A DNA stretch of 64,000 nucleotides, taken from an uncultured Bacteroidota bacterium (GTDB lineage Bacteria; Bacteroidota; Bacteroidia; Bacteroidales; GCA-2748055). Positions within the stretch are counted from its first letter, which is position 1. The number at the start of each line of letters is the position of its first letter. The DNA lies in contig CAWCAK010000008.1 of assembly GCA_963793455.1 (NCBI GenBank), positions 298,480-362,479 of the forward strand, in the 5' to 3' direction. Shown one piece after another: positions 6,000-25,319 of this stretch. A model generated the notes under the pieces. That model was not told where the DNA came from. It ran no database searches and was given only the letters and a program-made list of their open reading frames with translations. The translations under genes were made by a program, and so were the position numbers.

Positions 6000-7865
6000 A
6001 TGAAGAAGTTAATAATTATAACTGCATGTTTTTCTGGTATATGTCTATTATTTTCATGCAAAGCCAGTCCTGAAAATAACATGGTCCATGTATATGAAAT
6101 TCAAGAATTAATATTCACTGCAGAAAATGCATATGAGAATGCATATGAAGAAGTTGACTGTTGGGTGAGACTTCAGGGGCCCGGTTTCGATAAACGTGTA
6201 TATGGTTTTTGGGATGGAGGACAAACCTTTAAGGTCAGGGTTGTTGCAACAACGCCTGGTAACTGGTCGTGGGAGAGTAAAGCAAATCCTGAAAGTGATC
6301 AAGGTTTAAACGGAAAATCGGGATCATTCAAGGCAATTCCCTGGACCGACCAGGAAAAAGAGGCCAACAATAACCGCCGTGGTTTTATCCGTCCCACTCC
6401 CAATGGTCATGCACTCCAGTATGCTGATGGTACACCATTTTTCTTTATTGGCGACACATGGTGGTCAGCTTCAACCTGGCGCTATCCTCTTACCGGTAAT
6501 GCACCCCGGGAAAACTGGGATCCGGGACCTGAAGGTCATTCATTTGAAAACATGACTTTGTACCGCAAAAAACAAGGATACAATTCAATGGCAATGATTG
6601 CCTGCTTCCCTAACTGGGCAGCTGATGGGCTGCCGCCCAGGGTGGTGGATGAGCAGGGAATAGGCATTCGCCAGGCATGGGAAAAATTCGGAGTTGGAAC
6701 GGCGAAAGATATGCACGATGAAGCAGGTAATCTTCCCTTCGAATTAACGAAAAACGTACCCATGGCTGATTTCGATAAAATCAATCCTGCCTATTTTCGA
6801 TCATTGGATAAAAAAATGGATTATCTGGATTCAATCGGTTTTGTACCGATGTTAGAAACGGTCCGTCGGGACCATGGCCCACCCTGGAAAGCATACTTTG
6901 AATGGCCAGATTCATTTGTGAGGTACATTCAGTATATTGTTGCAAGATATGGAGCATATAATATCATCTTCAGCCCCATCCATCTCGACTGGATCATCCC
7001 CACATTTTGCCTCCCAAGTGAAGATTTTAATGAAGCGATCATTGCCTGGCATGATCAATACGGCCCATTGCCATACGGGCAACCTGTCACTTCCTTAATA
7101 AATCCGGCAACCCACATCATTTATGGCACCGGGGAGAAGGCCCCCTGGCTTACCATGCACTCCGTAGGGAATAACCCACGAAACAATGGCTTTTTCCCCA
7201 TGCTGGAAGAACAATTCAAAATTGAGCCGCCCATGCCGACTGCAAACCTGGAACCCTATTATACAGGATGGAAGTCCATTGTCGGAGGTGAAGAAATTGA
7301 ACGAAATTCAGACCGGGATAATTATTTTTCCAGGTCCCAGGCATGGGGAAGCGTATTATCAGGCGGATTGTCAGGACATATGTATGGTACGGGTGCTTAT
7401 GACGGGACAACCGTTGGTGAAGAAGAAGGTGAAAGGCCCATCATTTGGGATGCACTAAAATATACCGCCGGTGAACAGATAGGATATCTGCGGCGGTTTA
7501 TTGAATCCGAAGGAAACTCTTTTCAGAAACTGCAACTGGCATCTGGAAATATTCACCCTCGCAAAAGTCAATATAGCAAACCTCATGGTGGCTTTGACGG
7601 ATGGTCGTTTATGATGTGCACACCCGAAAAAGAGCTGGCGATGCTCTATTTTGAATCTAAAAGCGCTGTTCCTTATTTAACAGGATTTCTACCTGATAAG
7701 GAATATAAATTAAGCTGGTTTAATCCCATCAATGGTCAATGGTTAGAAGATGCTCAGATACTGTCAACCGACGCAGAAGGGAAACTACAGCTTAAACAAT
7801 TTCCCAACCAGGAAATCATTTCTAACCAGGACTGGAGCCTCAAACTGAACTGTATCAATCCATAA
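6000..7865 (+). CDS. DUF5060/DUF4038 lipoprotein (GH140/apiosidase-like TIM barrel, putative glycoside hydrolase)
   Basis: Lipobox LLFSC. Motifs GFWDGGQTFKVR, ADGTPFFFIGDTWW, ANLEPYY and C-terminal WFNPING. Confidence 0.75.
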   Translation: MKKLIIITACFSGICLLFSCKASPENNMVHVYEIQELIFTAENAYENAYEEVDCWVRLQGPGFDKRVYGFWDGGQTFKVRVVATTPGNWSWESKANPESDQGLNGKSGSFKAIPWTDQEKEANNNRRGFIRPTPNGHALQYADGTPFFFIGDTWWSASTWRYPLTGNAPRENWDPGPEGHSFENMTLYRKKQGYNSMAMIACFPNWAADGLPPRVVDEQGIGIRQAWEKFGVGTAKDMHDEAGNLPFELTKNVPMADFDKINPAYFRSLDKKMDYLDSIGFVPMLETVRRDHGPPWKAYFEWPDSFVRYIQYIVARYGAYNIIFSPIHLDWIIPTFCLPSEDFNEAIIAWHDQYGPLPYGQPVTSLINPATHIIYGTGEKAPWLTMHSVGNNPRNNGFFPMLEEQFKIEPPMPTANLEPYYTGWKSIVGGEEIERNSDRDNYFSRSQAWGSVLSGGLSGHMYGTGAYDGTTVGEEEGERPIIWDALKYTAGEQIGYLRRFIESEGNSFQKLQLASGNIHPRKSQYSKPHGGFDGWSFMMCTPEKELAMLYFESKSAVPYLTGFLPDKEYKLSWFNPINGQWLEDAQILSTDAEGKLQLKQFPNQEIISNQDWSLKLNCINP

Positions 7866-8004
7866 AATGAATGATTCCAATGCAGGTTCAGTATAAAGAA
7901 CCCTGCTGGAAACCGGGTCAGATGGTCAGGAGAAACCGGCATTGATCCTGTCCCGGATCCACCGGCGGTTCATCAGGAACACCAGGGTCTCCTGGAGGCA
8001 TCCT
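7848..8004 (+). repeat. 157-bp direct repeat, left copy (putative target-site duplication)
   Basis: AACTGTATCAATCC...GGAGGCATCCT is identical to 8897-9053 and ends immediately before the left TIR. Confidence 0.95.
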
Positions 8005-8017
8005 CCTGTTTTCGTCA
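8005..8017 (+). repeat. Left terminal inverted repeat (13 bp)
   Basis: CCTGTTTTCGTCA is the reverse complement of 8884-8896. Confidence 0.93.
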
Positions 8018-8124
8018 TTGGGACACCCTGGCCGCTTATTCACAAGATTTTGTCCTCTCCAGACTGAATCCCTGGGCACACAGGCGTGAAGGAAGGGGCA
8101 TAAGACAAAGGCTACTAAGTGCCT

Positions 8125-8421
8125 TTACAGGTTCAGTTTCCTTGGATCCATCTGGTTTCCCCTGAAGCTGGCCAGTTCAACACATTCACCATTGAAGCGG
8201 TAGTACAGCGTTGTTTGAGGGCTGATAACACAACGCCTGAGGTTTTTTCTTTTATCTGAAAAAGGAAAAAGCCTGGGATTGATTGCTATCAGATCGATCA
8301 CCTCTTCAAAATAGATATCCACACGGGCAGCTACCACTGCACCAAACTGTTCTGAAACATAATCAAGGATAGCCTCGTACTCCCCGTAGGCTCGTTTGGA
8401 GTAACGTACAGGAAATGACAT
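8125..8421 (-). CDS. Type II toxin, RelE/ParE family
   Basis: 98 aa, basic. Pattern VRYSKRA..EYEAILDY...NPRLFP...LRRCVI...TTLYYR...FRGNQMDP; lies downstream of a small acidic gene. Confidence 0.85.
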   Translation of the reverse strand: MSFPVRYSKRAYGEYEAILDYVSEQFGAVVAARVDIYFEEVIDLIAINPRLFPFSDKRKNLRRCVISPQTTLYYRFNGECVELASFRGNQMDPRKLNL

Positions 8422-8431
8422 AATCGAGAGA

Positions 8432-8662
8432 TTAGAACTTATATTTCGCCTGGATCCTCTCCCTTACCTCAGAACGGCTAAGAGACTCCCCACGATCCAA
8501 TTGTTCCAAGCCCTCCTCGATGGCTTCGCGGTCTTCTTCACTTATCTGATCCCACCAGTCAGATCCTTCGAGTTGCAAGGCTTCCAGCTTTTCGATCAGC
8601 TCTGACTCCTGTATCGAAGATATCCAGTTGATAAGGTTCAGTTTCCTGACCTCCAGATTCAT
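8432..8662 (-). CDS. Putative antitoxin (Bacteroidota addiction-module type)
   Basis: 76 aa from ATG 8662 (the ORF track extends it to 8701), acidic. MNLEVRKLNLINWI...DWWDQISEEDREAIEEGLEQLDRGE; ends 10 bp upstream of the toxin. Confidence 0.8.
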   Translation of the reverse strand: MNLEVRKLNLINWISSIQESELIEKLEALQLEGSDWWDQISEEDREAIEEGLEQLDRGESLSRSEVRERIQAKYKF

Positions 8663-8710
8663 GATGGATGAAAATTGATTTGATGTAAAGTTACGATTCA
8701 TATTGGTTAT

Positions 8711-8794
8711 TTAAAATGATGGGGCTTCTTGAGTTGATTCTGCAGCTCCTGCACATACCGTTCCGCTCTTGTTCTTTTTCTCCCGTACAAACAC
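8711..8794 (-). pseudogene. 5' remnant of an IS1634-family-like transposase
   Basis: GTG TTT GTA CGG GAG AAA AAG AAC AAG AGC GGA ACG GTA reads (M)FVREKKNKSGTV. This resembles the MF(V/I)RxKKNxSG start I recall for Bacteroidota IS1634 transposases. It starts about 100 bp inside the element end and stops after 27 codons. Confidence 0.65.
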
Positions 8795-8883
8795 ATTATA
8801 AGTGAATGGGACACCCGAAAACGTCAGAAACAAAGTGCTATATCGCTGATTATGTTTGTTTTAAAAAGACACTCCGGGAAGAG

Positions 8884-8896
8884 TGACGAAAACAGG
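8884..8896 (+). repeat. Right terminal inverted repeat (13 bp)
   Basis: TGACGAAAACAGG, immediately followed by the second 157-bp repeat. Confidence 0.93.
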
Positions 8897-9053
8897 AACT
8901 GTATCAATCCATAAAATGAATGATTCCAATGCAGGTTCAGTATAAAGAACCCTGCTGGAAACCGGGTCAGATGGTCAGGAGAAACCGGCATTGATCCTGT
9001 CCCGGATCCACCGGCGGTTCATCAGGAACACCAGGGTCTCCTGGAGGCATCCT
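8897..9053 (+). repeat. 157-bp direct repeat, right copy
   Basis: Identical to 7848-8004. Contains the functional 3' end of the flavoprotein gene. Confidence 0.95.
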
Positions 9054-10003
9054 TTCATGGGACCTGCCCGCCGGAACACCTTCATGACCCTCTCCAGGAT
9101 CCGGTTGTACCTGATCACCTGCCGCAACAGTTCGGGCTCATGGGAAGGATCCAGGATCATCCGGGCCACTTCCTGCCCGGACACCAGCGACTGGTAAATG
9201 CCTTCCCCTGTAAATCCGGATGCAAGCCCGGCTGCCTCTCCGGCCAGGAAAACATTCCCGAAACGCACACCCCTGTAATCGCATGCAATGGGATAGGATT
9301 CCAGCGGGGCATCCCCCGGATCGATCTGCTTCTCCTTCAGCCACTCCCGTAGGTTCTCCTTCACCTCCTGGTGTGATACCCTCCCGGGATCGCAGCAACA
9401 TCCTGCCACAATGCTTCCCCTGTGCGGGAATATCCAGGCATACCACTCATGGAACCTGCGGTGGTCAAGGAAGATCTCCAGCACCGGATCCACATGCTCC
9501 ACCGGGATGGTATACTGAAATCCGATGAGTCTCTTTTCTCTCTTCAGGCCCAGGTGCCTCCTGACAACCGATGCGTACCCGTCTGCCCCCACCAGGAATC
9601 TGTAACCAAACTCCCTCCCGTCCCTCAGGGTGACCTTCTCCGGTCCGGTCCCTGTTACCTGGCTGCCGGTGAGCACCTCCACCGAAGTACCCTCCAGCAG
9701 GCTCCGCTGGTAGGCCCCCAGCTCTTTCCGGTCCACCGTGAAAAGGTAGGGTGCCGGAACCACTGTGTCGGCCCGCCTGCGCCTGGAGTGAATGGCTGCC
9801 CTGGAAATGCTGTGCGCGATCACATTCCGGGCAACGGCAGCACCTCCATGTCCTTCAGGGTGAGCCCCCCGGCACAAAGCTTGTCCCCGAATATGGTCCC
9901 CTTTCTCCAGGAGCAGGACCTTCAGGCCTGATGGAGCCAGGGTACTGGCACAATGGAGCCCGGCCGGGCCCCCTCCAACGATCACCACATCGTAACTGTC
10001 CAC
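8975..10003 (-). CDS. NAD(P)/FAD-dependent oxidoreductase, geranylgeranyl reductase family (contains a compensated frameshift pair near 9825-9900)
   Basis: Rossmann motif DVVIVGGGPAG; LVGADG, YAWIFP and LAGEAAGLASGFTGEGI. The conserved GDKLCAGGLT motif is present in a shifted frame. Confidence 0.85.
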   Translation of the reverse strand: MDSYDVVIVGGGPAGLHCASTLAPSGLKVLLLEKGDHIRGQALCRGAHPEGHGGAAVARNVIAHSISRAAIHSRRRRADTVVPAPYLFTVDRKELGAYQRSLLEGTSVEVLTGSQVTGTGPEKVTLRDGREFGYRFLVGADGYASVVRRHLGLKREKRLIGFQYTIPVEHVDPVLEIFLDHRRFHEWYAWIFPHRGSIVAGCCCDPGRVSHQEVKENLREWLKEKQIDPGDAPLESYPIACDYRGVRFGNVFLAGEAAGLASGFTGEGIYQSLVSGQEVARMILDPSHEPELLRQVIRYNRILERVMKVFRRAGPMKGCLQETLVFLMNRRWIRDRINAGFS

Positions 10004-23300: not shown

Positions 23301-25319
23301 TATCCGGGTACTGTCCACCTGTCCGTCCTCATCCTCATAAAAGGTATTTGAAAAATCAACAAAGAACTCCTTTTGCAAACCATCTTCCGGAGTGCTGAAC
23401 TTCTGCTGTGTATTGATATAAGCACCATCCGTATCCTGGTCCCACAGCATGATGCTGACCTCGGTTTCGTTATTAATACCATTGTCGTTTTCAGTGCTGT
23501 TCCTGAAACGGATGGTCATATAGGGCGCAGCAGAGATATCCAGCTCTGAGCCGCCTGTGATGGCACCCACGCTCCACCACATCCCCGGGTATGAGTTGGC
23601 CGGATAATCACAGTGAACGTACAGTTCCCCGTCTTCTATGGAGAGGTTGTAACCTTCTTCGGCAGAGAACCCATAGTCAGCCGGCAATCCGCCCGGTTCA
23701 AAATCCACCACCAGTCCGGTTACAGGTACCTCGAGTGCAGATATGGTAAAGCGCTGTTCATAGGACGCATCACCGTTGTTTCCGGCATTGCCACCATCAT
23801 CTGTAACACCCAGGGTGATGACAGAGGACCCAAGCACTCCGGAGAGCTGGAAGGAGAGTTGTGCTTTGCCATTGGCCACCGGACCCATGGTTACATCAGA
23901 TACAACAGACTCCGCTGAACTGACCACGGCCCAGGTCAGTATCTGCGACCCATCATCCCCGTCGGAAATACCTGATACAGGGATCGAGTGCGTCCCTGCA
24001 GTACCCGGAATCCCGATATCATTGATTTGTTCAAACAGGGGGGGATGATTGATGCTTTCGTAGATGGTTACATCAAAGCTGTAATCCCTTTGATCAATTC
24101 CACCATGCAGGCTTCCTCCGTCATCAGCCAGGCCAACTGTGATATAAACGCTATTTCCGGGAGAGGCTGCCGGATCAGGAGCCATTTCAATGAATCCATC
24201 CAGATAGAGTGGGTCGAAAAAAACATCCGGATCGGGAATCTGGGAAGGATCTGAGCTGGATGCCGTCACGGTTATGTGCTGATCTGCCTCCCCATTACCG
24301 TCGTTGATGTTCAACAGCGGGATCTTCAAAGGCACCCCGGCAACGGCCATCTGGTCTGAAACAGTGTCCATAGCAGGGGCTGCATTTGCAAGGGCGCTCA
24401 CTTTGAAGGTCATCTCTTTATCGTTCTCTGCACCGGGAGAGGATACCACCACGGAGATGGTGGCGTCCCCGGTCACATTGTCGTCGGGTGACAGGGTCAT
24501 GGTGCCATATCTGTCCCCGGAAACATAGGTTACAACAGGGTCGGGGACCAGGAGTTTGTCAGAACTGGTGGCTGTAATGGAAATGGAGCCTGTATCGTCT
24601 GCTCCGTCAGTGATGTTTCTCAGTTTTACTTCCCGGGAAGGCGTTCCTGTTTCCATCACTGTCCATTCCTGGTCAGGAACGGTTGAAATGGCCGGGGTGT
24701 TGAATGCGTCGGATCCTGCCCTGAGATTGTCAAAAAATACCCGGGGGCCGGGCCTGGTGGTTCCCGGGAAGTATCCCAGCGGATTGGGCAGAAAATGTAT
24801 ATTGCTGACGGCACTTAAAATCTCTGCATCAGTAAGGGTAACAGGACCGGTGATCCCGTTGAGCACCGCACCCGATTCAAGGTTAAAGGAGATGCCGGTA
24901 AAATCATAGCTGTACTGCTGAAATACCGCTGATTCAACAATCTCCTGTTCAGCTCCGAAGGCGTATGGCAGCACACTGATCCGCTGAGGGTAGAATACCG
25001 TATATGCCTCTCCTCCCTCTCCATCCGTATAGTGAATACCCACGGCCACAGCCAGAGCCAGGCTGAAATTAGACCTGATATCCAGGCTGATGAAAGGATG
25101 GGCAGACATATCGATGGCGGAAAAATTGTAGTCAAAGGCATCCCATAAGCCTGTGCGCTCCCCTTCAATCAGCAATGCCCCGTCAGATTCCAACAGGGTA
25201 TAGCTATATCCCTGCCACCCAATCAGGGTGTCATCCTCAAACGCTTCAACGATTCCTGTCTGGGAGCGTACCGGTAGAGAGAGCAATAATCCAAGGAGGA
25301 GGTAGAGCAAATTTTTCAT
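20366..25319 (-). CDS. Large multimodular T9SS-secreted GH30-like glycoside hydrolase with about 7 cadherin/Ig-like repeats and CBM-like domains (one gene, frameshift near 23290)
   Basis: Signal peptide. Repeats of the form P...DQ...GI.DG...TA.SS...V...DDGG. Catalytic SIQNEP and WMTES, plus FHAY. C-terminal IYPVPA...PGTYLI...FIKR T9SS domain. Confidence 0.8.

What the first reader, a model, noticed from the sequence alone, without database searches (positions are those of the whole stretch)
7848..9053. Transposase-less IS1634-type cassette carrying a toxin-antitoxin module, flanked by an exact 157-bp target duplication
Seen: an 892-bp segment (8005-8896) bounded by perfect 13-bp inverted repeats (CCTGTTTTCGTCA...TGACGAAAACAGG), with identical 157-bp direct repeats abutting both TIRs. 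Inside are only an antitoxin and a RelE/ParE toxin; there is no transposase. Established: IS1634 (Mycoplasma) and IS1549 (Mycobacterium) have short TIRs and make unusually long, variable direct repeats. Inference: this is a non-autonomous derivative in which an addiction module replaced the transposase and which moves using a transposase supplied in trans. The identical repeats suggest a recent insertion. Long direct repeats make excision by recombination easy, so the TA could counter-select that loss, giving a self-stabilising mini-transposon. I do not recall this architecture being described.
Basis: partly seen in the sequence, partly recalled or inferred. Interest (0 to 1): 0.88.

Follow-up and report, generated by a model that had tools for sequence, protein, structure and literature searches.

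The report
Transposase-less IS1634 cassette carrying toxin-antitoxin
An 892-base mobile cassette that has swapped its transposase gene for a toxin-antitoxin pair sits between two exact 157-base copies of its landing site, and it belongs to a wider family of such cargo-carrying cassettes derived from an IS1634-type insertion sequence.

Summary
Two exact 157-bp repeats (7848-8004, 8897-9053) abut perfect 13-bp inverted ends of an 892-bp insert. The insert holds a ParE-type toxin and an upstream antitoxin, and no transposase.

The IS1634 reading is supported.
- The insert keeps 46 bp of the 3' end and 144 bp of the 5' end of an IS1634-family insertion sequence, including the first 13 transposase codons.
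- Intact elements with the same ends (1635-1727 bp, 504-539 aa) occur in metagenome contigs. Four tested transposases score 345-357 bits on the IS1634 model.
- A second TA copy lies elsewhere in the genome between a different, 271-bp repeat, so the cassette moved after losing its transposase.
- Sister cassettes in the genome and genus carry no gene, AbiEi, YhcG/DUF1016 nuclease or Rpn-like genes. Their flanking repeats are 21-564 bp.

Two caveats. No intact matching transposase was found in this 82%-complete genome. Many metagenome copies have no flanking repeat.

The idea that the TA protects against repeat-mediated loss is untested and not required, because gene-less sisters also persist.

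The closest concepts are mobile insertion cassettes (MIC231) and IS1634/IS1549 long repeats. This is a new variant of known kinds. This scan noted the family twice before.

The parts
7848..8004 (.). Direct repeat copy 1 (target-site duplication). It holds the last 18 nt of the apiosidase-like gene (6000-7865, +) and a spare copy of the last 79 nt of the FAD-oxidoreductase gene.
8005..8017 (+). Left terminal inverted repeat CCTGTTTTCGTCA (the 3' end of the parent IS)
8005..8050 (+). 46 nt retained from the 3' end of the parent IS (89% identical to nt 1-44 of the intact IS in L142). Contains the subterminal motif GGGACACCC at 8020-8028.
8125..8421 (-). ParE/RelE-type toxin, 98 aa
   Evidence: Pfam PF05016, 24.6 bits against cut-off 23. 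Weak PDB ParE matches, best E 0.0077. 102 homologues, many named ParE or RelE/ParE toxin by their sources.
8432..8701 (-). Antitoxin candidate, 89 aa (76 aa if it starts at 8662, as gene callers chose). No Pfam, NCBIfam or PADLOC family.
   Evidence: Predicted complex with the toxin scored 0.78 against best control 0.22.
8756..8794 (-). Remnant of the transposase gene: its first 13 codons (VFVREKKNKSGTV, with the start codon changed to GTG)
8753..8896 (-). 144 nt retained from the 5' end of the parent IS (77% identical to nt 1507-1651 of the intact IS in L142). Contains a second GGGACACCC at 8808-8816.
8870..8885 (-). Inward-facing hairpin followed by a T run (terminator-like), directly inside the right inverted repeat
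8884..8896 (-). Right terminal inverted repeat (the 5' end of the parent IS)
8897..9053 (.). Direct repeat copy 2. It holds the functional last 79 nt of the FAD-oxidoreductase gene (8975-10003, -).

Best explanation
The 892-bp segment is a non-autonomous derivative of an IS1634-family insertion sequence, that is, a mobile insertion cassette.

Inferred from sequence:
- An internal replacement removed all of the transposase gene except its first 13 codons and put a ParE-type toxin-antitoxin operon in its place, in the same orientation.
- Both terminal inverted repeats, the subterminal GGGACACCC motifs and the 5' leader with its hairpin were kept.
- The cassette was then moved by a transposase made elsewhere. 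This follows from two copies at two sites with different duplications.
- Repair synthesis across the gap gave the two exact 157-bp copies. Because the duplicated stretch holds the 3' ends of two convergent genes, both genes stay complete.

Proposed, not shown: the two ends joined to target strands at points 157 nt apart.

The TA is best read as one of several interchangeable selfish or defence-type cargoes of this element family. Any extra role in holding the insertion in place is possible but unproven.
For: Structure: exact 157-bp repeats abut perfect 13-bp inverted repeats.

Family in the same genome:
- The 13-mer, with up to 1 mismatch, occurs 29 times.
- It bounds a second TA copy (972 bp), an AbiEi cassette (1178 bp) and five 480-500-bp gene-less elements.
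- Repeats abutting the ends were found at 8 of the 9 pairs tested. They measure 157, 271, 262, 165, 185 (offset 150), 564 and 227+196 nt, plus a short split one.

IS1634 link:
- The only IS1634-family transposase locus in the genome (NF033559, 191.6 and 128.6 bits) is a broken copy. It has related ends (CCTGTTTTGTGCG plus GGGACACCC) and a 294-bp exact repeat.
- In 80 metagenome loci carrying the exact 23-nt left end, 18 elements of 1635-1727 bp have a matching right end. Fifteen of these 18 carry ORFs of 504-539 aa.
- Four such ORFs score 345-357 bits on NF033559, cut-off 100.
- One intact IS (L142, same locus as L178) has a 108-bp exact repeat.

Derivation: cassette nt 749-892 and 1-46 align with the two ends of that IS, including the first 13 transposase codons.

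Spread:
- The left-end motif is in 21 of 49 genomes of the genus, with 0 hits for the reversed control.
- It is in 5 of 401 genomes drawn across the order.
- Relatives' cassettes have abutting repeats of 21, 37, 47, 62, 69, 185 and 244 nt: 7 of 20 loci examined. Most of the rest are cut by contig ends.

TA pair:
- Pfam ParE and source names.
- Predicted complex 0.78 against best control 0.22. That mark was reached by 58 of 80 solved complexes and 2 of 110 mismatched pairs. Runs agree in at least 94% of contacts and partner pLDDT is at least 75. The counts hold only roughly because my own alignments were used.

Against: - No intact transposase with these exact ends was found in this genome (82% complete) or in the 49 genus genomes. 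The G045 copy with identical ends is broken, and the intact G062 copy has the end variant CCTGTTTTCCGAA.
- Intact matching elements come only from metagenome contigs of unknown hosts.
- Long repeats are not universal. One own-genome element (C12) has none. Of 40 evaluable element/partner rows from metagenome contigs, only 3 have an abutting repeat (108, 108 and 38 nt). At least 12 copies with several hundred bases of flank on both sides have none, not even a few bases.
- Independent reads do not bridge the left junction of this locus.
- The toxin's Pfam score is only just above the cut-off, and the antitoxin has no named family.
- The TA cassette form was seen only in this genome. The closest TA homologues elsewhere (L005/L228, L227) lack the inverted repeats and the direct repeats.
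Confidence: 0.9

Rival explanations
1. One reading: the TA cargo is there because it counter-selects deletion of the cassette by recombination between its long flanking repeats. The element would then be a self-stabilising mini-transposon.
For: Long identical repeats are good substrates for deletion. The second TA copy (contig C9) has a 1-nt deletion that truncates its antitoxin after about residue 71, while its toxin is intact. The predicted toxin interface uses antitoxin residues 48-89. The window copy's antitoxin may therefore be needed to cover two toxin genes.
Against: Gene-less 480-484-bp sisters sit between 165-, 185- and 564-bp repeats that are 98-99% identical, and the AbiEi cassette sits between 262-bp repeats, all without a TA. 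Cargo across the family is varied. Two TA copies in one cell would normally cross-protect. The C9 frameshift lies in a run of C and could be a sequencing error. No experiment was done.
Confidence: 0.2
2. Assembly artefact: the 157-bp repeat and the insert are a mis-join or a collapsed or expanded repeat in a metagenome-assembled genome.
For: The genome is a 15-contig, 82%-complete assembly. Public contigs bridge the right junction by only 29 nt and do not bridge the left junction.
Against: The same architecture, inverted ends directly abutting long repeats, recurs at 7 other places in this genome. It also recurs in 7 loci of other species' genomes and in independent metagenome contigs. Both flanking genes are full length, and the oxidoreductase aligns end to end with an orthologue.
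Confidence: 0.03
3. The insert entered by homologous (Campbell-type) integration of a circular DNA that carried a 157-bp copy of the locus, not by transposition.
For: A single crossover also leaves an insert between two direct copies of the shared stretch.
Against: Each of the other loci has its own local sequence duplicated, of a different length, always starting exactly at the conserved inverted ends. Every circle would have had to carry a different piece of chromosome joined precisely to the ends. The ends are those of a DDE transposon.
Confidence: 0.02

Closest known systems
IS1634 (Mycoplasma mycoides) and IS1549 (Mycobacterium smegmatis), IS1634 family of DDE insertion sequences
   Same: Short (13-bp) terminal inverted repeats that fit the family end consensus C-----YT. 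Long flanking direct repeats of variable length (8-514 bp in print; 21-564 bp here). Autonomous relatives with the same ends encode transposases scoring 345-357 bits on the family model.
   Different: This element has no transposase and carries a TA operon. Its host is an environmental Bacteroidales-like bacterium, judged from the source names of toxin homologues. Most family members in print make 5-6-bp repeats. Many metagenome copies of this group show no repeat at all.
MIC231 / IS231 mobile insertion cassettes of Bacillus cereus (Chen et al. 1999; De Palmenaer et al. 2004). I saw these only as entries in the reference list of PMC2266710 and as the term 'MICs' in PMC4133298. The details are recalled.
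   Same: The ends of a known IS bracket passenger genes with no transposase, and the cassette depends on a transposase supplied in trans.
   Different: The parent IS belongs to another family (IS4/IS231, 10-12-bp repeats). No long duplications. As far as I recall, the cargo there is not a TA.
Toxin-antitoxin pairs in Tn3-family transposons (PMC7157771; title and start of abstract seen in the listing). Tn4662a has a TA (PMC4133298, passages seen).
   Same: A type II TA travels as cargo inside a transposable element.
   Different: Those are autonomous paste-and-copy transposons with transposase and resolvase and 5-bp duplications. Here the TA has replaced the transposase.
MITEs and transporter IS (tIS), as defined in passages of PMC4133298 and PMC9330008
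   Same: Sister elements of 93-104 bp and 480-500 bp with the same ends are MITE-like. Passenger genes within IS ends recall tIS.
   Different: MITEs carry no genes. tIS keep their transposase. This cassette has genes and no transposase.

Membership tests
IS1634 family (as an autonomous IS) | Encodes a DDE transposase of the IS1634 family | tested here: not met
   No transposase ORF in 8005-8896; only the first 13 codons remain. It is therefore a derivative, not an IS. Elements with the same ends do encode one: 345-357 bits on NF033559.
IS1634 family (as an autonomous IS) | Terminal inverted repeats that fit the family end consensus C-----YT | tested here: met
   CCTGTTTTCGTCA has C at position 1 and T, T at positions 7 and 8. 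Consensus taken from Table 1 of PMC2266710.
IS1634/IS1549-type behaviour | Long flanking direct repeats of variable length | tested here: met
   157 nt here. 165-564 nt at other own-genome copies. 21-244 nt in relatives. 38 and 108 nt in metagenome contigs. However, 37 of 40 evaluable metagenome rows have none.
Mobile insertion cassette (MIC) | Ends of a cognate IS, passenger gene(s), no transposase | tested here: met
Mobile insertion cassette (MIC) | Moved in trans by the cognate transposase | tested here: inconclusive
   Two copies at different loci with different repeats (157 and 271 nt) imply movement after the transposase was lost. No intact cognate transposase was found in this genome. 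No assay is possible with these tools.
Type II toxin-antitoxin, ParE/RelE superfamily | Toxin matches the ParE/RelE fold family | tested here: met
   PF05016 at 24.6 bits, cut-off 23. PDB ParE chains at E 0.0077-0.17. Homologues named ParE or RelE/ParE toxin by their sources.
Type II toxin-antitoxin, ParE/RelE superfamily | Small adjacent antitoxin that binds the toxin | tested here: inconclusive
   An 89-aa ORF lies 10 nt upstream on the same strand and has no named family. The structure model supports binding, 0.78 against best control 0.22. This is not a measurement.
Type II toxin-antitoxin, ParE/RelE superfamily | Toxicity, and its neutralisation by the antitoxin | not testable with these tools
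   Needs expression in a laboratory strain.
MITE | Small and non-coding | tested here: not met
   892 bp with two genes. Sister elements of 93-104 bp and 480-500 bp would qualify.

The most novel reading that the evidence does not exclude
This group of IS1634-type elements, with CCTGTTTTCGTCA ends, acts as a cassette shuttle for defence and addiction genes in Bacteroidales-like bacteria. On this reading:
- The two short ends have been refitted repeatedly with different single-gene or two-gene cargoes: ParE TA, AbiEi, YhcG/DUF1016 nuclease (PADLOC candidate PDC-S02), Rpn-like nuclease, and others.
- The long, variable stagger of insertion lets the element land on gene termini and promoter regions while leaving a complete copy of each neighbouring gene.
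- TA cargo specifically protects an insertion from deletion between its own long repeats.
Probability: 0.2. Interest if true: 0.65.

Novelty: new variant of a known kind. Interest (0 to 1): 0.45.

Why it matters
How IS1634 and IS1549 make duplications of tens to hundreds of bases has no published model (PMC2266710). This family offers a natural series of at least 17 insertions with repeats of 21-564 nt, together with intact candidate transposases and defined minimal ends (46 and 144 nt). That makes the question testable in a simple transposition assay.

It also shows that IS ends can be reused as a vehicle for TA and defence-type genes in environmental Bacteroidales-like genomes. Long duplications can make insertions at gene ends harmless. 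Annotation pipelines would miss both points, because the cassette has no transposase.

Tried and rejected
- Public reads. Only 3 coded runs hold small shares (0.15, 0.11, 0.05) of the stretch. Their contigs are short. None spans the whole insert, none bridges the left junction with this flank, and no empty-site contig was seen. This says nothing either way about an empty allele.
- Empty site in relatives. The left flank matches DNA in only 3 of 48 other genus genomes. None has both neighbouring genes together, so no orthologous unoccupied site could be read.
- Intact autonomous copy in the genus. Searches with the G045 element and with the family model found none with identical ends.
- TA cassette elsewhere. 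Not found in 80 metagenome loci or in the relatives' loci. The two closest TA homologues in the species-genome collection lack the ends.
- Protein atlas for the antitoxin. Best score 0.83, below the 0.9 level, and only unnamed Bacteroidota clusters.
- Promoter scan. 1 sigma-70-like site against 1.7 expected, so uninformative. Bacteroidetes-type promoters are not covered.
- Labels for two cargo ORFs (345 aa and 284 aa in relatives). No Pfam hit. Only a weak PADLOC MkoB hit for the 284-aa ORF, E 8.2e-5. I leave them unassigned.
- Integron cassette or phage-type integration was considered and dropped, because the ends are inverted repeats of a DDE transposon and the flanks are duplications of local sequence. 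No integrase search was run.
- Not run: Rfam, and a structure prediction of the toxin alone.
- Not available: ISfinder, and the supplements of the papers cited. Additional file 10 of PMC2266710 lists IS1634-family ends and could name this group.
Full report
OBSERVATION

Positions 7848-8004 and 8897-9053 are identical over 157 nt. They directly abut a perfect 13-nt inverted repeat, CCTGTTTTCGTCA, at 8005-8017 and 8884-8896. It is 14 nt if the flanking T/A is counted.

With up to one mismatch allowed, the 13-mer occurs only at these two places in the 64-kb window. Shuffles give 0.06 matches on average.

The 892-bp insert is 45% G+C, against 51-53% for its surroundings.

On the minus strand the insert carries two ORFs:
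- A 98-aa ORF at 8125-8421. It passes Pfam's ParE_toxin threshold, 24.6 bits against 23.
- An 89-aa ORF at 8432-8701, 10 nt upstream of the first.

There is no transposase-sized frame.

The duplicated 157 nt contain the last 18 nt of an apiosidase-like gene (6000-7865, +) and the last 79 nt of a convergent FAD-oxidoreductase gene (8975-10003, -). Both genes remain full length. The oxidoreductase aligns over residues 1-342 with an orthologue in a related species.

THE INSERT BELONGS TO A FAMILY IN THE SAME GENOME

The window lies in a 15-contig, 4.46-Mb genome estimated 82% complete. The 13-mer, with up to one mismatch, occurs 29 times in it. Pairs in inverted orientation bound:
- a second TA element (C9:102660-103631, 972 bp);
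- an 1178-bp element with a 263-aa gene (C8:110659-111836);
- five gene-less elements of 480-500 bp (C8, C9, C12, C5, C2);
- a partial element on C4.

I compared 1.5 kb of left flank with 1.5 kb of right flank for nine pairs. Direct repeats starting exactly at the element ends were found at eight:

| Element | Repeat length | Identity / note |
|---|---|---|
| Window TA copy | 157 nt | 100% |
| C9 TA copy | 271 nt | 97.0% |
| AbiEi cassette | 262 nt | 92.4% |
| C8 gene-less element | 165 nt | 99.4% |
| C9 gene-less element | 185 nt | 98.9%, offset by 150 nt on the right |
| C5 gene-less element | 564 nt | 98.2% |
| C2 gene-less element | 227 + 196 nt | complex |
| C4 partial element | 23 + 26 nt | split |
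| C12 gene-less element | none | - |

A genome-wide self-comparison found the same set. It also found a 1681-bp insert on C11 between 294-bp exact repeats.

LINK TO IS1634

The C11 insert starts with CCTGTTTTGTGCG followed by ATGGGACACCC. It ends with the inverted 13-mer, 23 nt before the second repeat copy. It holds the only IS1634-family transposase match in the genome (NCBIfam NF033559, 191.6 and 128.6 bits, cut-off 100). That gene is broken by frameshifts and stops.

In the genus:
- An intact 502-aa transposase (G062, contig of 1733 nt) scores 368 bits on the same model. It has the end variant CCTGTTTTCCGAA.
- A 1620-bp element with exactly the cassette's left end (G045:C5) carries a broken transposase of the same kind.

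In the 80 loci I could read:
- 18 elements of 1635-1727 bp have the matching right end.
- 15 of the 18 have a single ORF of 504-539 aa. The other three have ORFs of 354, 439 and 483 aa.
- Four of these ORFs score 345-357 bits on NF033559.

Autonomous elements that share these ends therefore exist.

HOW THE CASSETTE WAS DERIVED

The cassette was aligned with an intact element (L142, 1651 bp, 511 aa).
- Cassette nt 1-46 match the IS 3' end (41 of 46).
- Cassette nt 749-892 (window 8753-8896) match the IS 5' end (113 of 147). This stretch includes the inverted repeat, a hairpin with a T run, a second GGGACACCC motif and the beginning of the transposase gene.

Window 8756-8794 on the minus strand translates to VFVREKKNKSGTV. 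This is the N-terminus of the intact transposases, except that the start codon is now GTG.

About 700 bp of cargo thus replace the rest of the transposase gene, in the same orientation.

IT MOVED AFTER THAT

The C9 copy has the same cargo and the same breakpoints. It differs from the window copy by 12 substitutions, a 1-nt deletion and an 81-bp stretch bounded by a 7-nt direct repeat (TCCTGCA). It lies at another locus, between a different, older-looking repeat (271 nt, 97%).

The simplest history is that a transposase supplied in trans copied the TA cassette. On that reading the window copy, with identical repeats and the 81-bp deletion, is the younger one. This order is an inference.

THE CARGO

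Toxin:
- It has 102 homologues of 55-153 aa. Many are named 'plasmid stabilization system protein ParE' or 'RelE/ParE family toxin' by their sources, from Bacteroidales and Prolixibacteraceae records.
- It gives weak PDB matches to ParE chains, best E 0.0077.

Upstream ORF (antitoxin candidate):
- It has 43 homologues of 59-89 aa with no family name.
- The protein atlas gave only unnamed Bacteroidota clusters at scores up to 0.83.

Predicted complex:
- It scored 0.78, against 0.22 for the best of three controls.
- That mark was reached by 58 of 80 solved complexes and 2 of 110 mismatched pairs. These counts hold only roughly because my own alignments were used.
- The runs agree in at least 94% of contacts, and the partner's pLDDT is at least 75.
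- ParE-antitoxin complexes have been solved, so part of this pass may reflect likeness to them.
- The interface uses antitoxin residues 48-89.

The C9 copy's 1-nt deletion lies in a run of C and truncates its antitoxin after about residue 71. It could be a real mutation or a sequencing error.

Related TA pairs outside the cassette:
- G002 (L005, the same record as L228; 85-87% toxin identity over two aligned pieces) and another MAG (L227, 71%) carry the pair without the inverted repeats or flanking repeats.
- A distant paralogous pair lies at C8:35979-36519.

The cargo therefore looks captured from the ordinary chromosomal TA pool.

THE WIDER FAMILY

The left-end motif, with up to one mismatch, is present in 21 of 49 genomes of the genus, with no hit for the reversed control. 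As an exact match it is in 5 of 401 genomes drawn evenly across the order, or 3 of 236 genera.

Cargo next to the left end, among 17 relatives' loci read and the metagenome loci:
- AbiEi (PADLOC 206 bits for the own-genome copy);
- a YhcG/DUF1016 nuclease (Pfam 104 and 183 bits; PADLOC candidate PDC-S02);
- Transposase_31/YhgA-like (Rpn-type) genes (Pfam 100 bits), in the opposite orientation;
- two ORFs without a Pfam hit;
- internally deleted transposase remnants;
- an ORF that looks IS200/Y1-like by eye (L148, L176; not scanned);
- no cargo at all (93-104-bp and about 500-bp forms).

In 20 relatives' loci, seven cassettes have abutting repeats of 21, 37, 47, 62, 69, 185 and 244 nt. One complete element (the G045 IS relic) has none. 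The rest are cut by contig ends or lack a recognisable partner end.

RESULTS AGAINST A SIMPLE PICTURE

Among 44 element/partner rows from metagenome contigs, 4 had flanks too short to judge. Only 3 had abutting repeats: 108 nt twice (probably one locus seen twice) and 38 nt. One more had a 61-nt repeat displaced by 57 nt.

At least 12 copies with hundreds of bases of flank on both sides have no repeat, not even a few bases. They include three full-length elements (L177, L180, L184).

The stagger therefore appears to range from none to 564 nt. Alternatively, repeats are lost or mis-assembled in short-read contigs. I cannot tell which.

No intact transposase with exactly these ends was found in the host genome or its genus.

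Public runs hold only fragments of the locus. A 100%-identical 80-nt contig covers 8846-8925, and others cover 7749-7876 and 8896-8995. None bridges the left junction, and no empty site was seen.

MECHANISM

Shown by sequence:
- IS1634-family ends;
- loss of the transposase gene, with retention of both ends;
- two insertions of the same cassette with different duplications;
- intact neighbouring genes.

Inferred:
- mobilisation in trans;
- gap repair as the source of the duplication;
- relative ages of the copies, judged from repeat identity.

Proposed, not shown: the two element ends join to the two target strands at positions far apart, perhaps because joining is uncoupled or uses single-stranded or gapped DNA. 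The literature I read states that no model exists (PMC2266710, passage).

In all seven own-genome insertions examined, the duplicated stretch covers gene termini or a divergent start region, and the flanking ORFs keep their reconstructed empty-site length, or exceed it in one case (608 aa becomes 687 aa beside the C5 element). This may reflect survival of harmless insertions.

Flanks tend to be T before the left end (17 of 18 full-length copies) and A after the right end (13 of 18). Either the ends are one base longer or the target is mildly preferred.

COMPARISON WITH WHAT IS KNOWN

- IS1634 family. Published features are sizes of 1500-2000 bp, end consensus C-----YT and 5-6-bp repeats. IS1634 and IS1549 are exceptional at 8-514 bp (PMC2266710, passages). 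Other members make 6-bp repeats: ISGka5 (PMC8024623) and ISPfe2, which has 13/13 inverted repeats (PMC3281130).
- Transposase-less cassettes with passenger genes are known as MICs. MIC231 was seen only as reference entries, and the term.
- Passenger-carrying IS are known as tIS (PMC9330008).
- TA pairs are known cargo of Tn3-family transposons (PMC7157771, listing only; Tn4662a in PMC4133298).
- Four full-text searches turned up no IS1634-family cassette with passenger genes or a TA. Supplements and ISfinder were not available.

Within this scan, the 484-bp sister in the same genome (note e1-2306231) and a cassette with an IS200-like cargo and 149-bp repeats in another genome (note e1-2294019) were already read the same way.

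VERDICT

The thing is a new variant of known kinds, not a new kind. The self-stabilising role of the TA remains a hypothesis with some evidence against its necessity. Interest is moderate. The main value is a tractable system for the unexplained long duplications and a clear case of IS ends reused as a carrier for TA and defence-type genes.

Noticed in passing
L001:832-2489 (G000:C11:21915-23572; repeats at C11:21621-21914 and 23596-23889): Broken IS1634-family element with the end variant CCTGTTTTGTGCG. It lies between 294-bp exact repeats. 23 extra bases sit between its right end and the second repeat copy.
   Followed up: partly
L015:1280-2251 (G000:C9:102660-103631): Second TA cassette. 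A 1-nt deletion in a run of C truncates the antitoxin, and there are 81 extra bases bounded by a 7-nt repeat. The toxin is intact, with 3 substitutions. If the deletion is real, the window copy's antitoxin may have to cover both toxins.
   Followed up: partly
Seven own-genome insertions (window 7848-9053; L015; L093; L094; L095; L097; L001): In every case the long duplication covers gene ends or a divergent start region. The flanking ORFs are not shortened relative to the reconstructed empty site; one, beside the C5 element, is longer (608 aa becomes 687 aa).
   Followed up: partly
window 8870-8885 (-), and the same position in many family members: A hairpin followed by a T run lies just inside the right inverted repeat and faces inward. 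Several copies keep the stem through paired changes. It may block read-through transcription into the element.
   Followed up: partly
window 8020-8028 and 8808-8816: The motif GGGACACCC lies near both ends in direct, not inverted, orientation. It is kept in the intact elements and in the C11 and G062 end variants.
   Followed up: no
L034:1501-1600; also L173, L175, L182, L119, L126: Minimal elements of 93-104 bp that consist of little more than the two ends. Five of the six (metagenome contigs L119, L126, L173, L175, L182) were tested and have no abutting flanking repeat; L034 was not tested.
   Followed up: partly
Flanks of 18 full-length elements (loci L124-L184): The base before the left end is T in 17 of 18. 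The base after the right end is A in 13 of 18. The inverted repeat may really be 14 nt, or the target may be mildly preferred.
   Followed up: no
G000:C8:381004-383070 and G000:C6:404671-405277 (no loci fetched; outside the window): Two other near-identical direct-repeat pairs: 174 nt around a 1719-bp insert with a 533-aa ORF, and 184 nt around 239 bp. Neither has these inverted ends. Unexplained.
   Followed up: no
G000:C8:35979-36519 (outside the window): A distant paralogue of the same antitoxin-toxin pair (27-29% identity), in the same gene order.
   Followed up: no
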